64,000 bases of DNA from a phage, in the sequence record NC_129898.1; one strand, written 5' to 3'. The notes under the pieces are model-generated. The model worked only from the letters and a program-made list of their open reading frames with translations. It was not told the DNA's origin and ran no database searches. This document shows, piece after piece, positions 33,982 through 41,030 of the stretch. How positions within the stretch are numbered: position 1 is the stretch's first letter; each line of letters begins with the position of its first letter. Made by a program: the position numbers and the translations under genes.

Positions 33982-34743
33982 TTACAGTTCCATAAAGTTT
34001 TCTACGATGTCAATGAATGTTTTATCAGAGAAAGCGTCAACCGCCCCGTTAAACCAAACTGGGATGCCGCGATCCTCATACTGGTAAATGTCACTACGTG
34101 AAATGCCATTCTCCCCTAAATGCTGTGAGTCGTATTTGTTAACGATCAGTAGTTTAGTCCCCTTATTACAGGCAGGGAATAGCTCCCAGTTAAAATTGAT
34201 AACTGTGTTGGAGCACCCTACAAGGATAACCATATCATTGCTCGTCAGAGAAGTCAACAGGTCATACATGTCTACATACTTTGGAGCTACTTCTCCGAAG
34301 AACACTACATTAGGCTTGACCCAAGTATACTCGCTTGCATCTACCTCAGAGTATCCAATGTCTTTAATGACGTCATTCCCTTCATCATCCTCGTAGACTA
34401 TTTCTGGCAAATATCCGTGGACATGTAAAATATCTTCATGTTTTACACCAGCACGCTCCAGCAAATCATCTACATTGGTGGTCAGGTTGATCACACGACC
34501 AGACCAGCGGGAATACCATTCAGCTATCCGGAGATGTGCAAGGTTAGGATCAACACTGCCCAGAGCTACACGCCGTGCATTATAAAAGTCATGCACCTTA
34601 TAGTAGTTCTTGGCAAAGGTGTGGATGTTACACACCTCATCGATGCTGAAATTCTCCCACATTGCAGTGCCACCAGATCGGAAAGTTGGGATACCAGATT
34701 CAGCGCTCAAACCAGCACCGGAGATAATGATCAGTCGTCGCAT
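33982..34743 (-). CDS. Sir2-family (sirtuin-like) NAD-binding protein lacking zinc-ribbon cysteines
   Basis: GAGLSAESGIPTFR, PNLAHxxIA, TTNVDDL and HG motifs in canonical order; no CxxC...CxxC after the HG. Confidence 0.7.
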   Translation of the reverse strand: MRRLIIISGAGLSAESGIPTFRSGGTAMWENFSIDEVCNIHTFAKNYYKVHDFYNARRVALGSVDPNLAHLRIAEWYSRWSGRVINLTTNVDDLLERAGVKHEDILHVHGYLPEIVYEDDEGNDVIKDIGYSEVDASEYTWVKPNVVFFGEVAPKYVDMYDLLTSLTSNDMVILVGCSNTVINFNWELFPACNKGTKLLIVNKYDSQHLGENGISRSDIYQYEDRGIPVWFNGAVDAFSDKTFIDIVENFMEL

Positions 34744-34751
34744 AAGTGTCC

Positions 34752-35102
34752 TCAGTAGATGTTTTGTTTAATTTCTATTCCAAACTTTTTAAACGAGTCA
34801 GCAGCAAGCATGAATTTACGAGCCGCTGATGGGTTAGAAGTATGCACGAAAATCTTCACGTTGTCAACTACAGGAGGCTTACCAAATACAAATTTTTCCT
34901 CCAGTATGCAGAAGCAATCGTATCCTTCAAAAATTTCTCCCAAGTCGCTGTCAAAATGCCACTCAGAAACGCGTCTATATAGCTTTCCCTTGTCATTAAT
35001 GAAATCCATGAACTCAGAAGAACTCTTTAGCCAAAGAGCGTCTGGGAGCCCATAATTTGACGGATCTCTCAAATCATCTAGCCACACAATCAGCTTCTTC
35101 AT
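34752..35102 (-). CDS. hypothetical protein
   Basis: 116-aa ORF. Confidence 0.45.
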   Translation of the reverse strand: MKKLIVWLDDLRDPSNYGLPDALWLKSSSEFMDFINDKGKLYRRVSEWHFDSDLGEIFEGYDCFCILEEKFVFGKPPVVDNVKIFVHTSNPSAARKFMLAADSFKKFGIEIKQNIY

Positions 35103-36034
35103 TGCATATAGTCCTCGTTGTGGAAATAGCAGTCAAGTATCTCACGGCGTTCCTGCTCCAGGAGGCAATTCCACACATCTTCTGTGTAGTTTCTACGAAT
35201 GAAGTTTACCATGCCGTAAAACTCTTCGTCAACACGTTTAAAGATATCATCATCCCAAATCTTCCAAGCTCTACCCCTCATTACGACCTTCCGTGCCAGA
35301 TAGTAGGGAGACTTGATCTTTAGTTGCAGGTCATAAGGGTAGTAAGGCTTACGGATCATATACCCTTCGCCCCTTGTTTCTGCAGCCAACTCTTTTGCAT
35401 AGCTGAACGGAATTTCACGCACAGTGTGAGGACGTTTTGCACCAAGGTATTTGGCAATACCGTCTAAAGCTGCTTCTGGTAGCATTATTCCAGAATCATT
35501 GTATCGGCAACCGATCAAATAGGCACCATGATCTTCCTGAACAATATGCGGGTCTGAAGGGTGACAAATTTCAAACATGAATGTCATGTTTTCATGGCCC
35601 ATAACCTTCTTGATAAGATCTAAATTACCACATTGCTCCTGGATTGTTTCCTTTGCGAGGTTACAATATGGAGAATCAAGAGACCCTGTTGTTGAGAACA
35701 ACAGTTCACCTTTGTGAGATGATACCACACCAAGGAATCCGTTCTTTTTCTCTACCGCCGTCACAAGTTTATTGTCAGGCAGGTTGGTGGAATTTTCTCC
35801 CAAGTTAAACACTTTTGTGAAGGGCCATGCCACAACATTTCCTTCATTACCGACAACAATTCCTCGGCACTCTAGTAAACGCGGAGACAAATGCCATAGA
35901 TTGTTGTAAAATACTTTTCTGGCATATTTATAGATCTTTAACCCAAGATCTGGATAATACCGACTGGTTACAAGACCTTTATTCACTAAATCATCTGCAT
36001 TAAAATACTTCATCATACATTCCTCGTTTGTCAT
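35099..36034 (-). CDS. ligase-family nucleotidyltransferase, probable RNA ligase
   Basis: Motif I VEKKNGF (KxNG, no Arg at +5), motif IV EGYMIRK, motif V LKIKSP; 311 aa; a separate DNA ligase exists at 31342..32625. Confidence 0.55.
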   Translation of the reverse strand: MTNEECMMKYFNADDLVNKGLVTSRYYPDLGLKIYKYARKVFYNNLWHLSPRLLECRGIVVGNEGNVVAWPFTKVFNLGENSTNLPDNKLVTAVEKKNGFLGVVSSHKGELLFSTTGSLDSPYCNLAKETIQEQCGNLDLIKKVMGHENMTFMFEICHPSDPHIVQEDHGAYLIGCRYNDSGIMLPEAALDGIAKYLGAKRPHTVREIPFSYAKELAAETRGEGYMIRKPYYPYDLQLKIKSPYYLARKVVMRGRAWKIWDDDIFKRVDEEFYGMVNFIRRNYTEDVWNCLLEQERREILDCYFHNEDYMQ

Positions 36035-36077
36035 TTTGTCACTCTATCTTGCCACACAAATAAACTAGTGTCAACAC

Positions 36078-36106
36078 TTGAAATGAACAAAAGAGTTATG
36101 TATACT
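36078..36106 (+). promoter_or_regulatory. sigma70-like promoter for the plus-strand kinase operon
   Basis: TTGAAA (36078-36083), 17-nt spacer, TATACT (36101-36106); RBS GGAGG before ATG 36135. Confidence 0.55.
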
Positions 36107-36134
36107 ACCATTAAAATTAAAACGGAGGATTACT

Positions 36135-36545
36135 ATGTCTAAAATGCTATATATCGTGCGTGGTCTACCAGGTTCTGGCAAATCAACACTGGCAAATGCA
36201 CTATCTTTAGAGGGGCTGTACCCACATTTTGAGAACGACATGTTCTGGTACGACGACGATGGAAATTACAACTGGGATGCAAGTAAAGTAACACTTGCAG
36301 CAAAATGGTGCAAAGATAACGTAGAAGATATGATGCGTATGGGATACGACCGTGTCGTGGTAAGTAATACGTTTACAAAAGAAAAACATGTGCAAGAATA
36401 TGTTGACATGGCAATCAGTCATGGGTATAGTTATACTGTGATCGTGGTTGAAAACCGCCACGGTAATAAGAGCATTCATGATGTTCCAGATAGGGTTGTG
36501 GACCGTATGGAGCGTGAGCTTAAAAACTGCATTAAACTAAAATGA
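36135..36545 (+). CDS. P-loop kinase (polynucleotide-kinase-like)
   Basis: Walker A GLPGSGKST near the N-terminus; 136 aa; operonic with a metallophosphoesterase. Confidence 0.6.
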   Translation: MSKMLYIVRGLPGSGKSTLANALSLEGLYPHFENDMFWYDDDGNYNWDASKVTLAAKWCKDNVEDMMRMGYDRVVVSNTFTKEKHVQEYVDMAISHGYSYTVIVVENRHGNKSIHDVPDRVVDRMERELKNCIKLK

Positions 36546-36552
36546 GGGATGT

Positions 36553-37107
36553 ATGAAATATTTTGTAACAAGCGATACACACTTTCTCCACCAGCGAGTC
36601 ATGGAGTTTGATTCATGTCAAAAACACAGATCTCAGTATGATCACAATCTTGACAGTATGAACGAAGGAATCATTGCAGAGTGGAACTCTGTTGTATCAC
36701 CAGAAGACACTGTGTTTCACTTGGGCGATATTGCATGCACTAAGGATAAGAATATCAACAACTTATTTCCAGATATTCTAAATATGTTGAACGGACATAT
36801 TATTCTTGTTCGTGGTAACCATGACACAAGGACGACTGTCAGAATTATGAAAGAGTTCGGTAATGAGGTTGTAGATTATTACGAGCTTCGCCACAACAAG
36901 AATTTGATCTGTATGAGCCATTACCAGTTTGCAAAGTGGAACAGAAAGCCTCACGGATCAGTCCAACTGTTCGGTCATGCTCACGGAACCACACAGCAGT
37001 TGTTTGGCAGGCAGTTTGATGTCGGTTGGGATGTGTGGGGGAGACTCTTACCATTAGAAGAGGCATACCGTATTGCAATGAGTCTTGCTATTGACAGCGG
37101 GGAGTAA
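36553..37107 (+). CDS. calcineurin-like metallophosphoesterase
   Basis: SDTHF (DxH), LGDI (GD), GNHD, GHAHG motifs in order. Confidence 0.75.
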   Translation: MKYFVTSDTHFLHQRVMEFDSCQKHRSQYDHNLDSMNEGIIAEWNSVVSPEDTVFHLGDIACTKDKNINNLFPDILNMLNGHIILVRGNHDTRTTVRIMKEFGNEVVDYYELRHNKNLICMSHYQFAKWNRKPHGSVQLFGHAHGTTQQLFGRQFDVGWDVWGRLLPLEEAYRIAMSLAIDSGE

Positions 37108-39553: not shown

Positions 39554-39599
39554 TTGACAATCAGTATTTGCCGTGATAAAATCCACCTATCACGTGATA
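39554..39599 (+). promoter_or_regulatory. sigma70-like promoter with overlapping 12-bp palindrome
   Basis: TTGACA (39554-39559), 17-nt spacer, TG-n-TAAAAT (39574-39582); perfect palindrome TATCACGTGATA (39588-39599). Confidence 0.55.
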
Positions 39600-39949: not shown

Positions 39950-40045
39950 AATATTTTCTTGACAAACTTTGCTTAACAGTGTAATATTGTAAACATGGTC
40001 TCCCACCTTTTCTGGCGGCTAAGGTGTAAAAGAAAGCCACCCAGT

Positions 40046-40117
40046 GCCCTGTTAGCTTAGTGGATAAAGCAGCGGCCTTCTAAGCCGTTGACACTGGTTC
40101 GAGTCCAGTACGGGGTG
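40046..40117 (+). tRNA. tRNA-Arg (anticodon TCT)
   Basis: Acceptor GCCCTGT/ACGGGGT, D-stem GCTT/AAGC, anticodon loop CTTCTAA, T-loop TTCGAGT, CCA encoded. Confidence 0.8.
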
Positions 40118-40250
40118 CCAAGTTCTTTTTAATGTAGCTTACTTTAGCAGAGTAAATCTTCGGCAAGTGGCGGTAACCACTTTACCGATACCTCATAGTT
40201 AGTGGTGAGAACACTAGCTATTTTAAAAAGAATTTAAATATTAGTATTTA

Positions 40251-40335
40251 GGTGAGTTAATTCCGTAGGGGTAGCGGGGCAGACTGTAAATCTGTTATCA
40301 TTGCGATTCGGGTGGTTCGACTCCATCACTCACCA
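40251..40335 (+). tRNA. tRNA-Tyr (anticodon GTA), long variable arm
   Basis: Acceptor GGTGAGT/ACTCACC, anticodon loop CTGTAAA, T-loop TTCGACT, discriminator A, CCA encoded. Confidence 0.75.
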
Positions 40336-40452
40336 CCAAATTTATATTTTTAAATGCATAAATCATACAGATAATGGCATTGATATTTATCGTCGTTTAT
40401 ACTAGTCACTAACTGCTCGAAAATCAGTGTCATTATCAGTATTGTTTATAAA

Positions 40453-40540
40453 AGAGGGTAGGGAGCAATGGTGCTCAAGCGGTCTTGAAAACCGTCCCGT
40501 TGAGGATGACTCGATGATGGTTCGATTCCATTATCCTCTG
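40453..40540 (+). tRNA. tRNA-Ser (anticodon TGA), long variable arm
   Basis: Acceptor AGAGGGT/ATCCTCT, anticodon stem GCGGT/ACCGT with loop CTTGAAA, T-loop TTCGATT, discriminator G. Confidence 0.7.
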
Positions 40541-40640
40541 CCATATTGTTGACCTTGTAATTAAGCGAAAGCCGGAAGCAGAACCGGATTATCAAATGTT
40601 ACAGTCGTCATCGCCGACTAGCCACATGGTCAACATATTG

Positions 40641-40737
40641 CGCTAGGTAAGCCCTTTGGCAAGGGCGAGGATTTTTAATCCTGAAAATAGACGAGGTAGT
40701 CGTTGAATACATAGATGGTTCGATTCCATCACCTAGC
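40641..40737 (+). tRNA. atypical 97-nt tRNA-like element (anticodon loop TTTTTAA, possibly UUU)
   Basis: Perfect acceptor GCTAGGT/ACCTAGC, D-stem GCCC/GGGC, canonical T-arm GATGG-TTCGATT-CCATC, but ~30-nt variable region with ACGA-GGTAG-TCGT hairpin. Confidence 0.35.
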
Positions 40738-40743
40738 ACCTTT

Positions 40744-40816
40744 TGCTGATGTAGCACAATTGGCAGTGCAATTGATTTGTAATCAATAGGTTGCAGGTTC
40801 AAGTCCTGCCATCAGC
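40744..40816 (+). tRNA. tRNA-Thr (anticodon TGT)
   Basis: Acceptor GCTGATG/CATCAGC, D-stem GCAC/GTGC, anticodon stem ATTGA/TCAAT with loop TTTGTAA, T-loop TTCAAGT. Confidence 0.8.
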
Positions 40817-40820
40817 ACCA

Positions 40821-40892
40821 TGGCCCTGTAGCTGGAAGGTTCAAGCAAGCGACTCATAATCGCCAGACGGTGGTTCAATTCCACCCAGGGCC
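40821..40892 (+). tRNA. tRNA-Met or Ile2 (anticodon CAT), elongator-type
   Basis: Acceptor GGCCCTG/CAGGGCC with paired 1:72, anticodon loop CTCATAA, T-loop TTCAATT. Confidence 0.7.
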
Positions 40893-40907
40893 ACCAAATT
40901 ATAAATA

Positions 40908-40981
40908 CTCCGCGTAGCTCAGCTTGGTAGAGCGCCTGATTTGGGATCAGGAGGTCGAGTGTTCGAATCACTCCGTGGAGA
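40908..40981 (+). tRNA. tRNA-Pro (anticodon TGG)
   Basis: Acceptor CTCCGCG/CGTGGAG (C1:G72), D-arm GCTCAGCTTGGTAGAGC, anticodon stem CCTGA/TCAGG with loop TTTGGGA, T-loop TTCGAAT. Confidence 0.8.
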
Positions 40982-41030
40982 CCACCTTTAGTTATACTTT
41001 AAACATATACACACAAAAGGAACCTTTAAA

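What the first reader, a model, noticed from the sequence alone, without database searches (positions are those of the whole stretch)
40046..40981. Phage-borne cluster of six canonical tRNAs (Arg-TCT, Tyr-GTA, Ser-TGA, Thr-TGT, Met/Ile-CAT, Pro-TGG)
Six cloverleafs with canonical T-loops and matching acceptor stems were read directly from the sequence between the early block and the terminase. A TATAAATA element sits just upstream of tRNA-Pro (40899-40906). No integrase or att-like repeat flanks the cluster, so these look phage-encoded rather than an integration target. Phage tRNA sets can compensate codon usage or replace host tRNAs cleaved or depleted by defence systems; proximity to the candidate RNA repair module makes the second role worth testing.
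Basis: seen in the sequence. Interest (0 to 1): 0.55.

Follow-up and report, generated by a model that had tools for sequence, protein, structure and literature searches.

The report
Known rV5-type phage tRNA operon

Summary
The window is an rV5-like (Vequintavirus) coliphage, 95-96% identical to JEP1, ECP26 and FV3. All six tRNAs and their anticodons are confirmed by ARAGORN and/or Rfam. They are the same six annotated in the rV5 reference genome and described in 2013, together with a consensus sigma-70 promoter, so the finding is already known.

Refinements:
- The CAT tRNA is an Ile2 (lysidine, AUA) type, not Met.
- The cognate codons (AGA, ATA, ACA, CCA, TCA, TAC) are among the most phage-enriched codons relative to E. 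coli (p=1.5e-4). They remain enriched against other A-ending codons (p=0.002).
- TATAAATA occurs at chance frequency.
- An Rnl1-type ligase, a kinase, a phosphoesterase and a cREC protein lie 3-5 kb upstream, so an anti-defence role remains possible but untested.

- A 97-nt, five-armed tRNA-like RNA at 40642-40738, annotated elsewhere as tRNA-Lys or tRNA-OTHER. Every helix shows covariation. Its anticodon arm is 15-16 nt instead of 17, its loop varies between genera, its extra arm is about 30 nt, and CCA is not encoded.
- A 116-nt four-way-junction RNA at 40120-40236 that moves between tRNA clusters of unrelated phage groups.
- A 68-nt two-hairpin core at 40558-40626 shared with P7 and lambda.

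The parts
39959..39987 (+). Sigma-70 promoter-like site (TTGACA-17 nt-TAATAT), 58 nt upstream of tRNA-Arg
   Evidence: 10 of 12 matches. The homologous site in rV5 NC_011041 is annotated 'Sigma70-type promoter; P(tRNA)'. Pattern match only; no transcript data.
40046..40120 (+). tRNA-Arg (anticodon TCT, reads AGA/AGG), CCA encoded
   Evidence: ARAGORN; Rfam 67.8 bits. Best E. coli match is tRNA-Arg at 78% identity.
40120..40236 (+). Element 1: 116-nt structured RNA, a four-way junction with a 13-bp closing stem and three hairpins. It starts at the CCA of tRNA-Arg and ends 15 nt before tRNA-Tyr.
   Evidence: Fold z=-3.4. Present in 181 phage records across Vequintavirinae, Stephanstirmvirinae and T5-like Demerecviridae at 70-100% identity. 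40 pairs, 99.1% of cells paired, 7 pairs with compensatory change, 0 of 500 shuffles. Covariance model scores 131 bits on the + strand and 36 on the - strand. No Rfam match at E<=10. Absent from rV5, ime and FV3.
40251..40338 (+). tRNA-Tyr (GTA), long-variable-arm type, CCA encoded; Phapecoctavirus-type allele
   Evidence: Rfam 39 bits. ARAGORN misses it here but calls the ime allele. Sequence is identical to tRNA-Tyr of phAPEC8_ev052. 89.8% identical to tRNA-Tyr on ~95-kb E. coli plasmids.
40358..40449 (+). Spacer 2: long imperfect hairpin
   Evidence: Fold z=-4.6, 0 of 200 shuffles as stable. Found only in Vequintavirus at >=95% identity, so there is no power to test covariation.
40453..40543 (+). 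tRNA-Ser (TGA), CCA encoded
   Evidence: ARAGORN. Rfam places it under tRNA-Sec at 39.4 bits, below the gathering score. A close homolog is present but unannotated in phage P7.
40547..40635 (+). Spacer 3 element: closing stem GUUGACC/GGUCAAC around two hairpins. The conserved 68-nt core is 40558-40626.
   Evidence: Fold z=-2.3. The core is 85-89% identical to unannotated sequence in P7, lambda-derived DE3/imm21 and Salmonella phage ST1UNAM. One compensatory change in hairpin 2; both loops invariant.
40642..40740 (+). Seventh, non-canonical tRNA-like RNA (97 nt to the discriminator). It has five arms, an 'anticodon' arm AGGAU-UUUUA-AUCCU (or a 4-bp stem with loop UUUUUAA), an extra arm of about 30 nt, and ends ACC-U rather than CCA.
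   Evidence: ARAGORN 'tRNA-??? (atcc)'; Rfam tRNA 37.5 bits. The minimum-energy fold is a five-arm cloverleaf, z=-4.2. Across 8 distinct homologs: 22 pairs, 100% paired, 8 pairs with compensatory change including the tertiary 19:56 pair, 0 of 500 shuffles. Annotated as tRNA-Lys, tRNA-OTHER or tRNA-???(atcc) in GenBank relatives. No match in 5,426 E. coli genomes.
40745..40820 (+). tRNA-Thr (TGT), CCA encoded
   Evidence: ARAGORN; Rfam 77.1 bits.
40822..40896 (+). tRNA-Ile2 type (anticodon CAT, predicted to be lysidine-modified and to read AUA), CCA encoded
   Evidence: ARAGORN 'Met(cat)'; Rfam 60 bits. The best E. coli match is a PGAP-annotated tRNA-Ile with CAT, 81.6% identity over the full length. 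The anticodon arm is identical at 17 of 17 positions and the acceptor stem matches. The BASEL annotation says tRNA-Ile, codon ATA.
40900..40907 (+). TATAAATA motif; judged a chance occurrence
   Evidence: 5 copies in 64 kb against 2.7 expected, with no consistent placement upstream of genes. The rV5 paper reports no gp55/gp33/gp45 homologs.
40908..40984 (+). tRNA-Pro (TGG), CCA encoded
   Evidence: ARAGORN; Rfam 66.4 bits.
34752..37107 (.). Context: RNA-repair gene neighbourhood. cREC receiver domain 34752-35102(-), Rnl1-type RNA ligase 35099-36034(-), P-loop kinase 36135-36545(+), metallophosphoesterase 36553-37107(+).
   Evidence: Pfam: PF20274 2.3e-13; PF09511 8.3e-15; PF13671 5.3e-11; PF00149 1.6e-6. 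BASEL annotation: RNA ligase, polynucleotide kinase, putative phosphoesterase.

Best explanation
This is the tRNA operon of an rV5-like (Vequintavirus) lytic coliphage. Host RNA polymerase most likely transcribes it early from a near-consensus sigma-70 promoter as a polycistronic precursor. Host RNase P and 3' trimming enzymes then cut out the tRNAs (inferred). Six products are ordinary elongator tRNAs: Arg-UCU, Tyr-GUA, Ser-UGA, Thr-UGU, Ile2-CAU (needing host TilS lysidine to read AUA) and Pro-UGG. Their main job is to raise decoding capacity for codons that this 43% GC phage uses heavily but the 51% GC host uses and supplies poorly, above all AGA/AGG and AUA, which are most frequent in late genes. 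The operon is modular and accessory: cassettes are swapped with unrelated phages and some relatives have lost several of the genes. Interleaved with the tRNAs are non-tRNA structured RNAs: a tRNA-shaped RNA with a shortened anticodon arm and a large extra arm, and two folded spacer elements. They are under selection for structure, and their function is not shown.
For: Shown here:
- The six cloverleafs and their anticodons.
- Identity of the locus with the rV5 cluster and its annotated P(tRNA) promoter.
- Ile2 assignment of the CAT tRNA.
- Codon enrichment, phage versus E. coli per 1000 codons: AGA 12.6 vs 0.7 (rank 1 of 61), AGG rank 2, ATA 10.6 vs 3.0 (rank 3), ACA rank 5, CCA rank 9, TCA rank 16, TAC rank 17.
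- Mann-Whitney p=1.5e-4 for the six cognate codons against the other 55, and p=0.002 against the other A-ending codons.
- AGA, AGG and ATA are higher in late genes than in early genes: 15.3, 9.8 and 11.8 against 10.6, 4.6 and 9.3 per 1000.
- The rV5 paper made the same argument for Arg and Pro (PMC3606486).
- Modularity: V18 lacks the Tyr, Ser and Pro genes and the intact seventh RNA, and the window carries a Phapecoctavirus-type cassette of element 1 plus tRNA-Tyr.
- Structure of the extra RNAs.

Inferred, not shown: early polycistronic transcription, RNase P processing, and lysidine modification.
Against: - The host codon reference is only 41 genes from one 50-kb stretch of one E. coli strain, and the phage ORFs are greedy calls, not curated genes.
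- TAC and TAT are only mildly enriched (1.6x and 1.4x), so codon demand explains Tyr poorly.
- AAA has a lower RSCU in the phage than in the host, so the seventh RNA's Lys-like loop is not explained by codon demand.
- Codon matching is a correlation and does not exclude a second role.
- V18 is viable without several of these genes, so the benefit is conditional.
- No expression data were available.
Confidence: 0.78

Rival explanations
1. Anti-defence supply. The tRNAs exist mainly to replace or out-number host tRNAs cut by anticodon nucleases (PrrC, RloC, PARIS AriB, retron-Eco7 PtuAB, ApeA, colicins), working together with the nearby RNA ligase, kinase and phosphoesterase that re-seal cleaved tRNAs.
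For: An Rnl1-type ligase, P-loop kinase, metallophosphoesterase and cREC domain lie 3-5 kb upstream. Published precedents: T5 tRNA-Lys neutralises PARIS (PMC11464382); SP15 tRNA-Tyr rescues from retron-Eco7 when driven by a strong phage promoter, and SP15 tRNA-Lys rescues from PrrC170 (PMC11555353). The cluster includes Tyr and a Lys-like RNA and has a near-consensus promoter. The tRNA-Tyr cassette is exchanged horizontally.
Against: The set matches codon bias closely. The Ile2 anticodon arm is identical to the host's, so it carries no resistance substitution. Vequintaviruses are reported sensitive to Ec2ApeA, an anticodon-loop nuclease whose in-vitro targets include tRNA-Tyr (bioRxiv 10.64898/2026.01.26.701840). 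None of the anti-defence papers searched mentions rV5-like phages. The two roles are not mutually exclusive, and the confidence given is for this being a significant selected role.
Confidence: 0.3
2. The seventh element (40642-40740) is simply a functional tRNA-Lys(UUU) with an unusually long variable arm, as annotated in the BASEL phages. It decodes AAA/AAG for a phage that uses 1.7 times more lysine codons than its host.
For: Opening the U31-A39 pair gives the loop UUUUUAA, with U33, anticodon UUU and A37. The discriminator is A, which is a LysRS identity element together with the anticodon (established knowledge). Rfam tRNA scores 37.5 bits, above the gathering score. tRNA-Lys is annotated in AlexBoehm and others. 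Lys codons are 72 per 1000 in the phage against 42 in the host.
Against: The anticodon arm is 15 nt, not 17. Its innermost pair covaries (U-A to C-G), which implies a 5-bp stem with a 5-6-nt loop. Homologs carry UUUAUAA (Av-05, TH18) or CAUCCA/CAGCCA (KE22, L042, L043), yet every other arm is conserved. Av-05 already has an Ile2-CAU tRNA, so its UAU version fills no gap. The discriminator varies (A, U, C) and CCA is not encoded, unlike the six canonical genes. Genuine tRNA-Lys from E. coli, phi92 and SP15 share only the loop U-run and the T loop with it. AAA is not relatively enriched.
Confidence: 0.25
3. The tRNA genes are host-derived DNA or an integration (att) target, not phage genes.
For: None found. 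tRNA genes are common att sites in general.
Against: The whole 3.5-kb region is 95-96% identical to more than 100 lytic rV5-like phage genomes. The tRNAs are only 78-82% identical to chromosomal E. coli tRNAs. Nothing in the annotation of the homologous ~41 kb upstream in AlexBoehm, or of the flanks in ime and rV5, is called an integrase.
Confidence: 0.01

Closest known systems
tRNA cluster of Escherichia phage rV5 (NC_011041; Kropinski et al. 2013, PMC3606486) and other Vequintavirus genomes
   Same: Same locus, same order, same six tRNAs (Arg, Tyr, Ser, Thr, 'Met', Pro) and the same sigma-70 P(tRNA) promoter. The BASEL annotation additionally lists tRNA-Lys and calls the CAT gene tRNA-Ile.
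   Different: This window, like JEP1, JES2013 and ECML-10, carries the extra 116-nt element 1 and a Phapecoctavirus-type tRNA-Tyr allele that rV5, FV3 and ime lack.
Phage anti-defence tRNAs: T5 tRNA-Lys versus PARIS (PMC11464382); SP15 tRNA-Tyr versus retron-Eco7 and SP15 tRNA-Lys versus PrrC170 (PMC11555353)
   Same: A large virulent enterobacterial phage with a tRNA cluster that includes Tyr and a Lys-like RNA, driven by a strong promoter.
   Different: No rescue phenotype is known for rV5-like phages. The Lys-like RNA here is not a canonical tRNA. SP15 lacks element 1.
T4 tRNA region with stable RNAs C and D, plus T4 Pnkp/Rnl1 tRNA repair
   Same: A phage tRNA cluster that also encodes non-tRNA small stable RNAs of unknown function (RNAC/RNAD; PMC9697503). 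The phage also encodes an Rnl1-family ligase and a polynucleotide kinase.
   Different: No sequence or Rfam relationship between these RNAs and RNAC/RNAD was tested or found. The kinase and phosphoesterase are separate proteins here, and the phosphoesterase is a calcineurin-like metallophosphatase. In T4 Pnkp both activities are in one protein with a different phosphatase fold (my own knowledge). T4 RNAC and RNAD are late RNAs.
Bacterial type II (long-variable-arm) tRNAs and tRNA mimics such as the tRNA-like domain of YrlA Y RNAs
   Same: The seventh RNA has acceptor, D and T arms and the 19:56 elbow pair of a tRNA, plus a long extra arm.
   Different: Its extra region of about 30 nt has invariant single-stranded flanks. 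Its anticodon arm is 2 nt short. The Rfam YrlA model gives only a sub-threshold hit elsewhere in the cluster (25 bits against a gathering score of 69).

Membership tests
   ARAGORN structures for Arg, Ser, Thr, CAT and Pro. Rfam alignments for Arg, Thr, CAT, Pro and Tyr. Ser is called only by ARAGORN and Tyr only by Rfam.
   No RNA-seq or biochemistry available. All six genes encode CCA.
tRNA-Ile2 (CAU anticodon, lysidine-modified, reads AUA): gene 40822-40896 | CAT anticodon with body and anticodon arm like host ileX/ileY, and no initiator or elongator-Met features | tested here: met
   81.6% identity to an E. coli gene annotated tRNA-Ile (CAT). Anticodon arm 17 of 17 identical; acceptor GGCCCT./.AGGGCC with C4-G69 and C5-G68.
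tRNA-Ile2 (CAU anticodon, lysidine-modified, reads AUA): gene 40822-40896 | C34 converted to lysidine by TilS, and charging by IleRS | not testable with these tools
   Needs mass spectrometry or tRNA sequencing.
Canonical tRNA-Lys(UUU): the seventh element, 40642-40740 | 5-bp anticodon stem with a 7-nt loop (17-nt arm) presenting UUU | tested here: not met
   The arm is 15 nt. Pair 31:39 covaries U-A to C-G, giving a 5-6-nt loop. Homologs have UAU or non-canonical loops.
Canonical tRNA-Lys(UUU): the seventh element, 40642-40740 | Short (4-5 nt) variable loop and sequence similarity to known tRNA-Lys | tested here: not met
   The extra region is about 30 nt. The alignment with E. coli, phi92 and SP15 tRNA-Lys shows only the loop U-run and the T loop in common. 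No blastn match in E. coli genomes.
Canonical tRNA-Lys(UUU): the seventh element, 40642-40740 | tRNA L-shape: acceptor, D and T helices and the D-loop/T-loop 19:56 pair | tested here: met
   100% of cells paired in 8 sequences, with compensatory changes in the acceptor and D stems and at 19:56 (G:C to U:A).
Phage anti-defence tRNA (T5 tRNA-Lys / SP15 tRNA-Tyr type) | Same isoacceptor as a tRNA cleaved by a known defence nuclease | tested here: inconclusive
   Tyr-GUA is present. The Lys-like RNA is non-canonical. The other tRNAs (Arg, Ser, Thr, Pro, Ile2) overlap only partly with reported ApeA targets.
Phage anti-defence tRNA (T5 tRNA-Lys / SP15 tRNA-Tyr type) | Resistance substitutions in the anticodon stem-loop, or over-expression from a strong promoter | tested here: inconclusive
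   The Ile2 arm is identical to the host's. A near-consensus sigma-70 promoter is present, but only as a pattern match.
Phage anti-defence tRNA (T5 tRNA-Lys / SP15 tRNA-Tyr type) | Rescue of infection in cells carrying the defence system | not testable with these tools
   Needs phage genetics.
T4-type tRNA healing-and-sealing module (Pnkp + Rnl1) | Rnl1-family RNA ligase | tested here: met
   PF09511 RNA_lig_T4_1, E=8.3e-15, full-length profile match. No PDB sequence hit at E<=0.01.
T4-type tRNA healing-and-sealing module (Pnkp + Rnl1) | Bifunctional 5'-kinase / 3'-phosphatase (Pnkp) | tested here: inconclusive
   A separate P-loop kinase (PF13671, 5.3e-11) and a calcineurin-like phosphoesterase (PF00149, 1.6e-6) are adjacent. 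Their activities and RNA specificity are not shown, and there is no PDB sequence hit for the kinase.

The most novel reading that the evidence does not exclude
The cluster encodes three uncharacterised families of phage small RNAs that are co-transcribed with tRNAs. (1) A five-armed tRNA mimic confined to Vequintavirinae. It keeps the tRNA L-shape and a long extra arm with invariant flanks, but has a shortened, genus-variable 'anticodon' hairpin, so it is not a decoder. It may act as a decoy or inhibitor for a tRNA-binding host factor such as an anticodon nuclease. (2) A 116-nt four-way-junction RNA that travels as a cassette, usually with tRNA-Tyr, between tRNA operons of Vequintavirinae, Stephanstirmvirinae and T5-like phages. 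(3) A 68-nt two-hairpin element shared between lytic rV5-like phages and temperate P1/P7 and lambdoid phages. None has an Rfam family.
Probability: 0.35. Interest if true: 0.6.

Novelty: already known. Interest (0 to 1): 0.25.

Why it matters
The six-tRNA cluster adds nothing new. It is annotated in the rV5 reference genome, and its codon-usage rationale was published in 2013. Two refinements are useful for annotation: the 'unwarranted' tRNA-Met is an Ile2 tRNA for the rare AUA codon, and depositors call anywhere from five to seven tRNAs at this locus. What could matter lies between the tRNAs. Three structured RNAs are conserved, two of them with covariation support and spread across unrelated phage groups, and they have no described family. 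One of them is routinely annotated as tRNA-Lys although it cannot form a normal anticodon arm. tRNA-Lys and tRNA-Tyr are now known targets of PARIS, PrrC and retron defences, and this phage also carries an RNA ligase/kinase module. A tRNA-shaped non-decoder and a mobile element linked to tRNA-Tyr are therefore concrete, cheap candidates for testing RNA-based counter-defence.

Tried and rejected
1. TATAAATA as a late promoter: not enriched and not consistently placed. rV5 has no gp55/33/45 homologs.

2. ARAGORN's fold of the seventh RNA (A-U-only stem, 8-nt loop, 4-base anticodon 'atcc'): rejected, because KE22, L042 and L043 break that stem and instead compensate in the AGGAU/AUCCU stem.

3. 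The seventh RNA's anticodon fills a gap in each phage's tRNA set: rejected. Av-05 has both a UAU-loop version and a true Ile2-CAU tRNA.

4. The seventh RNA as a decayed pseudogene: rejected by 100% pairing and 8 compensated pairs.

5. Element 1 as the strong 'tRNA-Tyr promoter' fragment of SP15 (PMC11555353): SP15 has no copy, and no sigma-70-like site lies within the element here.

6. An antisense target for the invariant UGAAUACAUAG flank within the window: matches are at chance level.

7. Metagenome and genome scans with the gapped flank pattern: almost all hits were chance. The true hits were only further Vequintavirus-type and Avunavirus-type copies.

8. PDB sequence searches for the ligase and the kinase: no hits.

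9. Literature searches for rV5/Vequintavirus tRNA function, or for these spacer RNAs: only genome reports giving tRNA counts.
Full report
**Observation**

ARAGORN on the whole window finds six genes, all on the + strand between 40046 and 40984:
- Arg-TCT, 40046-40120
- Ser-TGA, 40453-40543
- an unassignable 99-nt 'tRNA-??? (atcc)', 40642-40740
- Thr-TGT, 40745-40820
- Met-CAT, 40822-40896
- Pro-TGG, 40908-40984

Rfam at gathering score also finds six tRNA matches, but not the same six: Thr (77.1 bits), Arg (67.8), Pro (66.4), CAT (60.0), a long-arm tRNA at 40251-40335 (39.0; anticodon GTA, Tyr) and the odd element at 40642-40738 (37.5). ARAGORN misses Tyr. Rfam misses Ser, whose best match is tRNA-Sec at 39.4 bits, below the threshold of 47.

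The six canonical genes all encode their 3' CCA.

**What the window is**

The 3.5 kb around the cluster is 95-96% identical over its full length to Escherichia phages JEP1, ECP26, NHEP1 and FV3 and to about 100 other members of Vequintavirus, the rV5-like myoviruses.

The matching site in the window is TTGACA-17 nt-TAATAT at 39959-39987.

The 2013 rV5 paper reports 'six tRNAs' and argues from codon usage that the Arg and Pro tRNAs speed translation. It calls the Met tRNA 'seemingly unwarranted' (PMC3606486).

Depositors of related genomes annotate anywhere from five to seven tRNAs at this locus. The odd element appears as 'tRNA-OTHER', 'tRNA-???(atcc)' or 'tRNA-Lys'. The finding as stated is therefore real but already known.

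The locus is phage DNA, not an integration target. The tRNAs are only 78-82% identical to chromosomal E. coli tRNAs. Nothing in the annotation of relatives, covering the homologous ~41 kb upstream in AlexBoehm and the flanks in ime and rV5, is called an integrase.

**The CAT tRNA**

Its best match in 5,426 complete E. coli genomes is a gene that PGAP annotates as tRNA-Ile, with 81.6% identity over the full length. In the alignment, the 17-nt anticodon arm AGCGA-CUCAUAA-UCGCC is identical to the host gene's. The acceptor stem (GGCCCU./.AGGGCC, including C4-G69 and C5-G68) also matches.

Av-05 and P7 carry the same type, and the curated BASEL annotation calls it tRNA-Ile, codon ATA.

It is therefore an Ile2-type tRNA. 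It is predicted, not shown, to need lysidine modification by host TilS and to read AUA.

**Codon usage**

I compared 93 greedy ORF calls from the window (18,601 codons; 43.1% GC) with 41 annotated genes from a 50-kb stretch of E. coli M19 (14,183 codons; 51.6% GC).

Ranked by phage/host frequency ratio among 61 sense codons:

| Codon | Rank | Phage per 1000 | Host per 1000 |
|---|---|---|---|
| AGA | 1 | 12.6 | 0.7 |
| AGG | 2 | 7.0 | 0.6 |
| ATA | 3 | 10.6 | 3.0 |
| AAG | 4 | 30.4 | 9.3 |
| ACA | 5 | 19.4 | 6.8 |
| CCA | 9 | 11.6 | 5.5 |
| TCA | 16 | 10.2 | 5.6 |
| TAC | 17 | 19.1 | 12.0 |

The six Watson-Crick cognate codons rank above the other 55 (one-sided Mann-Whitney p=1.5e-4). The five A-ending cognates also rank above the nine other A-ending codons (p=0.002), so this is not just AT-richness.

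AGA, AGG and ATA are more frequent in the rightward structural genes (15.3, 9.8 and 11.8 per 1000) than in the leftward early genes (10.6, 4.6 and 9.3).

This supports codon supplementation as the main function. The caveats are that the host sample is small, the phage genes are not curated, Tyr codons are only mildly enriched, and the evidence is correlational.

**The anti-defence alternative**

The 'RNA repair module' is real at the family level (BASEL names):
- 35099-36034(-) matches the T4 Rnl1 RNA ligase family (PF09511, 8.3e-15).
- 34752-35102(-) is a cyclic-phosphate-processing receiver domain (PF20274, 2.3e-13).
- 36135-36545(+) is a P-loop kinase (PF13671, 5.3e-11).
- 36553-37107(+) is a calcineurin-like phosphoesterase (PF00149, 1.6e-6).

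Phage tRNA-Lys and tRNA-Tyr are documented counter-defences against PARIS, PrrC170 and retron-Eco7 (PMC11464382, PMC11555353). In the retron case the tRNA must function in translation and must be strongly expressed. Resistance is not required, since E. coli tRNA-Tyr also rescued when driven by the phage promoter.

Nothing in those papers concerns rV5-like phages. The Ile2 arm is identical to the host's, and Vequintaviruses are reported sensitive to the anticodon-loop nuclease Ec2ApeA. I keep this as a possible additional role (0.3), not the primary one.

**TATAAATA**

The motif is at 40900-40907. The window holds 5 copies against 2.7 expected, and 15 of 100 shuffles reach 5. The other copies are not consistently upstream of genes on the matching strand. 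I treat it as chance.

**The seventh element (40642-40738)**

Rfam aligns it as a full cloverleaf with an insertion of about 28 nt in the variable region and the loop UUUUUAA. ARAGORN instead draws an A-U-only stem with an 8-nt loop. Homologs decide between the two.

Copies in Av-05 and TH18, in the Seunavirus KE22, and in two IMG/VR contigs (L042, L043) show compensatory changes in every helix of the Rfam-type fold:
- Acceptor stem: GCUAGGU/ACCUAGC, GCUGGGU/ACCCAGC, GCCUGGU/ACCAGGC and GCAGGGU/ACCCUGC.
- D stem: GCCC/GGGC, GACC/GGUC and GCGG/CCGC.
- Tertiary 19:56 elbow pair: G:C to U:A.
- Extra-arm hairpin: replaced by unrelated sequences that still pair.

On 8 distinct sequences and 22 pairs, 100% of cells pair and 8 pairs changed on both sides. 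No shuffle out of 500 reaches this, and slid controls give at most 2 such pairs. The minimum-energy fold is the five-arm cloverleaf, z=-4.2. It is a real RNA under selection for a tRNA-like shape, not a pseudogene.

It is not a canonical tRNA, for several reasons:
- The anticodon arm is 15 nt (16 in the KE22 group) instead of 17.
- Its innermost pair covaries (U-A to C-G), which implies a 5-bp stem closing a loop of only 5-6 nt. Opening that pair gives a 4-bp stem.
- The loop differs between genera: UUUUUAA in Vequintavirus, UUUAUAA in Av-05 and TH18, and CAUCCA or CAGCCA in KE22, L042 and L043.
- The single-stranded flanks of the extra arm (GAAAAUAG and UGAAUACAUAG) are invariant in every copy retrieved. 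The IMG/VR and metagenome copies were found by matching those flanks, so their invariance is independent evidence only for the four blastn-found copies.
- The discriminator varies (A, U, C) and CCA is not encoded.
- Av-05 carries a true Ile2-CAU tRNA as well as the UAU-loop version, so the loop is not filling a gap.
- Genuine tRNA-Lys from E. coli, phi92 and SP15 share only the U-run and the T loop with it.
- It has no match in any complete E. coli genome.
- Every copy retrieved from GenBank phages, IMG/VR and metagenomes resembles a Vequintavirinae type; the genome-collection hits to its flank pattern all failed the T-arm filter.

My reading is that it is more likely a non-decoding tRNA mimic (about 0.5) than a working tRNA-Lys (about 0.25). 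Its function is unknown. A decoy or competitor for a tRNA-binding host factor is speculation.

**Element 1 (40120-40236)**

rV5, FV3 and ime have tRNA-Arg and tRNA-Tyr 4-5 nt apart. The window, like JEP1, JES2013 and ECML-10, has about 130 nt between them.

This segment occurs in 181 phage records at 70-100% identity. These include Phapecoctavirus and Justusliebigvirus (phAPEC8, ESCO13, phi92), the Certrevirus PBES 02 and T5-like phages (Spc35, Lindwurm). In the seven annotated copies I examined, it lies inside a tRNA cluster, in an unannotated gap, in the same orientation as the tRNAs predicted by ARAGORN or annotated in the record, and usually directly upstream of tRNA-Tyr.

It folds as a four-way junction with a 13-bp closing stem and three hairpins (z=-3.4). 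In 12 sequences, 40 pairs are 99.1% paired and 7 pairs have compensatory changes, with 0 of 500 shuffles doing as well (this alignment was fitted to the model). A covariance model scores the + strand at 131 bits and the - strand at 36, as expected for an RNA with G-U pairs. Rfam has nothing for it, even at E<=10.

The window's tRNA-Tyr allele is identical to that of phAPEC8_ev052 and differs from the ime/rV5 allele by compensatory substitutions. Element 1 and tRNA-Tyr were therefore exchanged as one cassette, with junctions at the CCAA(A/G)UU ends of the flanking tRNAs. SP15, the phage used in the retron-Eco7 work, lacks the element.

**Spacer 3 and spacer 2**

Spacer 3 (40547-40635) folds with a closing stem and two hairpins (z=-2.3). 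Its 68-nt core is 85-89% identical to unannotated sequence in three other settings:
- P7, inside the C1-controlled tRNA operon.
- Lambda-derived DE3 and imm21 phages, between orf-64 and the holin gene.
- A Salmonella siphovirus.

Both loops are invariant and there is one compensatory change. In P7 it follows an unannotated tRNA-Ser(TGA) that closely resembles the window's, the same arrangement as here.

Spacer 2 (40358-40449) is a long hairpin (z=-4.6) found only in Vequintavirus, so covariation could not be tested.

**Verdict**

The best-supported function is codon supplementation from an early tRNA operon. The finding itself is already known, so I score its interest low. The unannotated or mis-annotated structured RNAs inside the cluster are the only part that might reward follow-up.

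Noticed in passing
Every helix and the 19:56 elbow pair show covariation, but the anticodon arm is 2 nt short, the loop differs between genera (UUUUUAA, UUUAUAA, CAUCCA), the extra arm of about 30 nt has invariant flanks, and CCA is not encoded. GenBank relatives call it tRNA-Lys, tRNA-OTHER or tRNA-???(atcc).
   Followed up: yes
window 40120-40236: A 116-nt four-way-junction RNA with no Rfam family, found in tRNA clusters of Vequintavirinae, Stephanstirmvirinae and T5-like phages (181 records). It is supported by covariation, is strand-specific, and is present or absent among near-identical rV5-like phages.
   Followed up: yes
window 40547-40635 (core 40558-40626); L037:1501-1568; L038:1501-1569; L039:1501-1566: A two-hairpin element whose 68-nt core is 85-89% identical to unannotated sequence in the P7 tRNA operon, in the late leader of lambda-derived phages (between orf-64 and S) and in a Salmonella siphovirus. 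Both loops are invariant. An STnc100-like hit lies just downstream in P7 (43 bits, below the gathering score of 47).
   Followed up: partly
window 40358-40449: A long imperfect hairpin between tRNA-Tyr and tRNA-Ser (z=-4.6). It is conserved only within Vequintavirus, so its structure could not be tested by covariation.
   Followed up: partly
window 40120-40338 versus L001:1621-1712 and L011:1503-1735: Cassette exchange. The window's element 1 plus tRNA-Tyr is the Phapecoctavirus allele; its tRNA-Tyr is identical to that of phAPEC8_ev052. It replaces the rV5/ime tRNA-Tyr allele, with junctions at CCAA(A/G)TT. The same tRNA-Tyr is 89.8% identical to tRNA-Tyr genes on ~95-kb E. coli plasmids, which I take from their size to be P1-like phage-plasmids.
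   Followed up: partly
L007:1150-1250 (phage V18): V18 carries a deletion that fuses the 5' part of tRNA-Tyr to the 3' part of the seventh RNA. It lacks the Ser and Pro genes, which shows that several of these genes are dispensable for a viable phage.
   Followed up: partly
window 33982-37107: A gene neighbourhood of SIR2 (33982-34743, -), a cREC cyclic-phosphate-processing receiver domain (34752-35102, -), an Rnl1-type RNA ligase (35099-36034, -), a P-loop kinase (36135-36545, +) and a metallophosphoesterase (36553-37107, +). It is a split healing-and-sealing set next to a sirtuin. The ligase and kinase have no PDB sequence relatives at E<=0.01.
   Followed up: partly
L037:1391-1477 (phage P7, NC_050152 about 72257-72343): ARAGORN finds a tRNA-Ser(TGA) that is not annotated in the P7 RefSeq record. 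It closely resembles the window's tRNA-Ser (alignment A7).
   Followed up: partly
window 39554-39582 and 39959-39987: Two near-consensus sigma-70 promoter-like sites in tandem (TTGACA-17-TAAAAT with an extended TG, and TTGACA-17-TAATAT). They correspond to rV5's annotated P74 and P(tRNA). The small ORF between them has no Pfam match.
   Followed up: partly
L008:1638-1713 (phi92): ARAGORN reports the annotated tRNA-Lys(TTT) of phi92 as 'tRNA-??? (tt)', that is, with an irregular anticodon loop. It lies directly downstream of phi92's copy of element 1.
   Followed up: no
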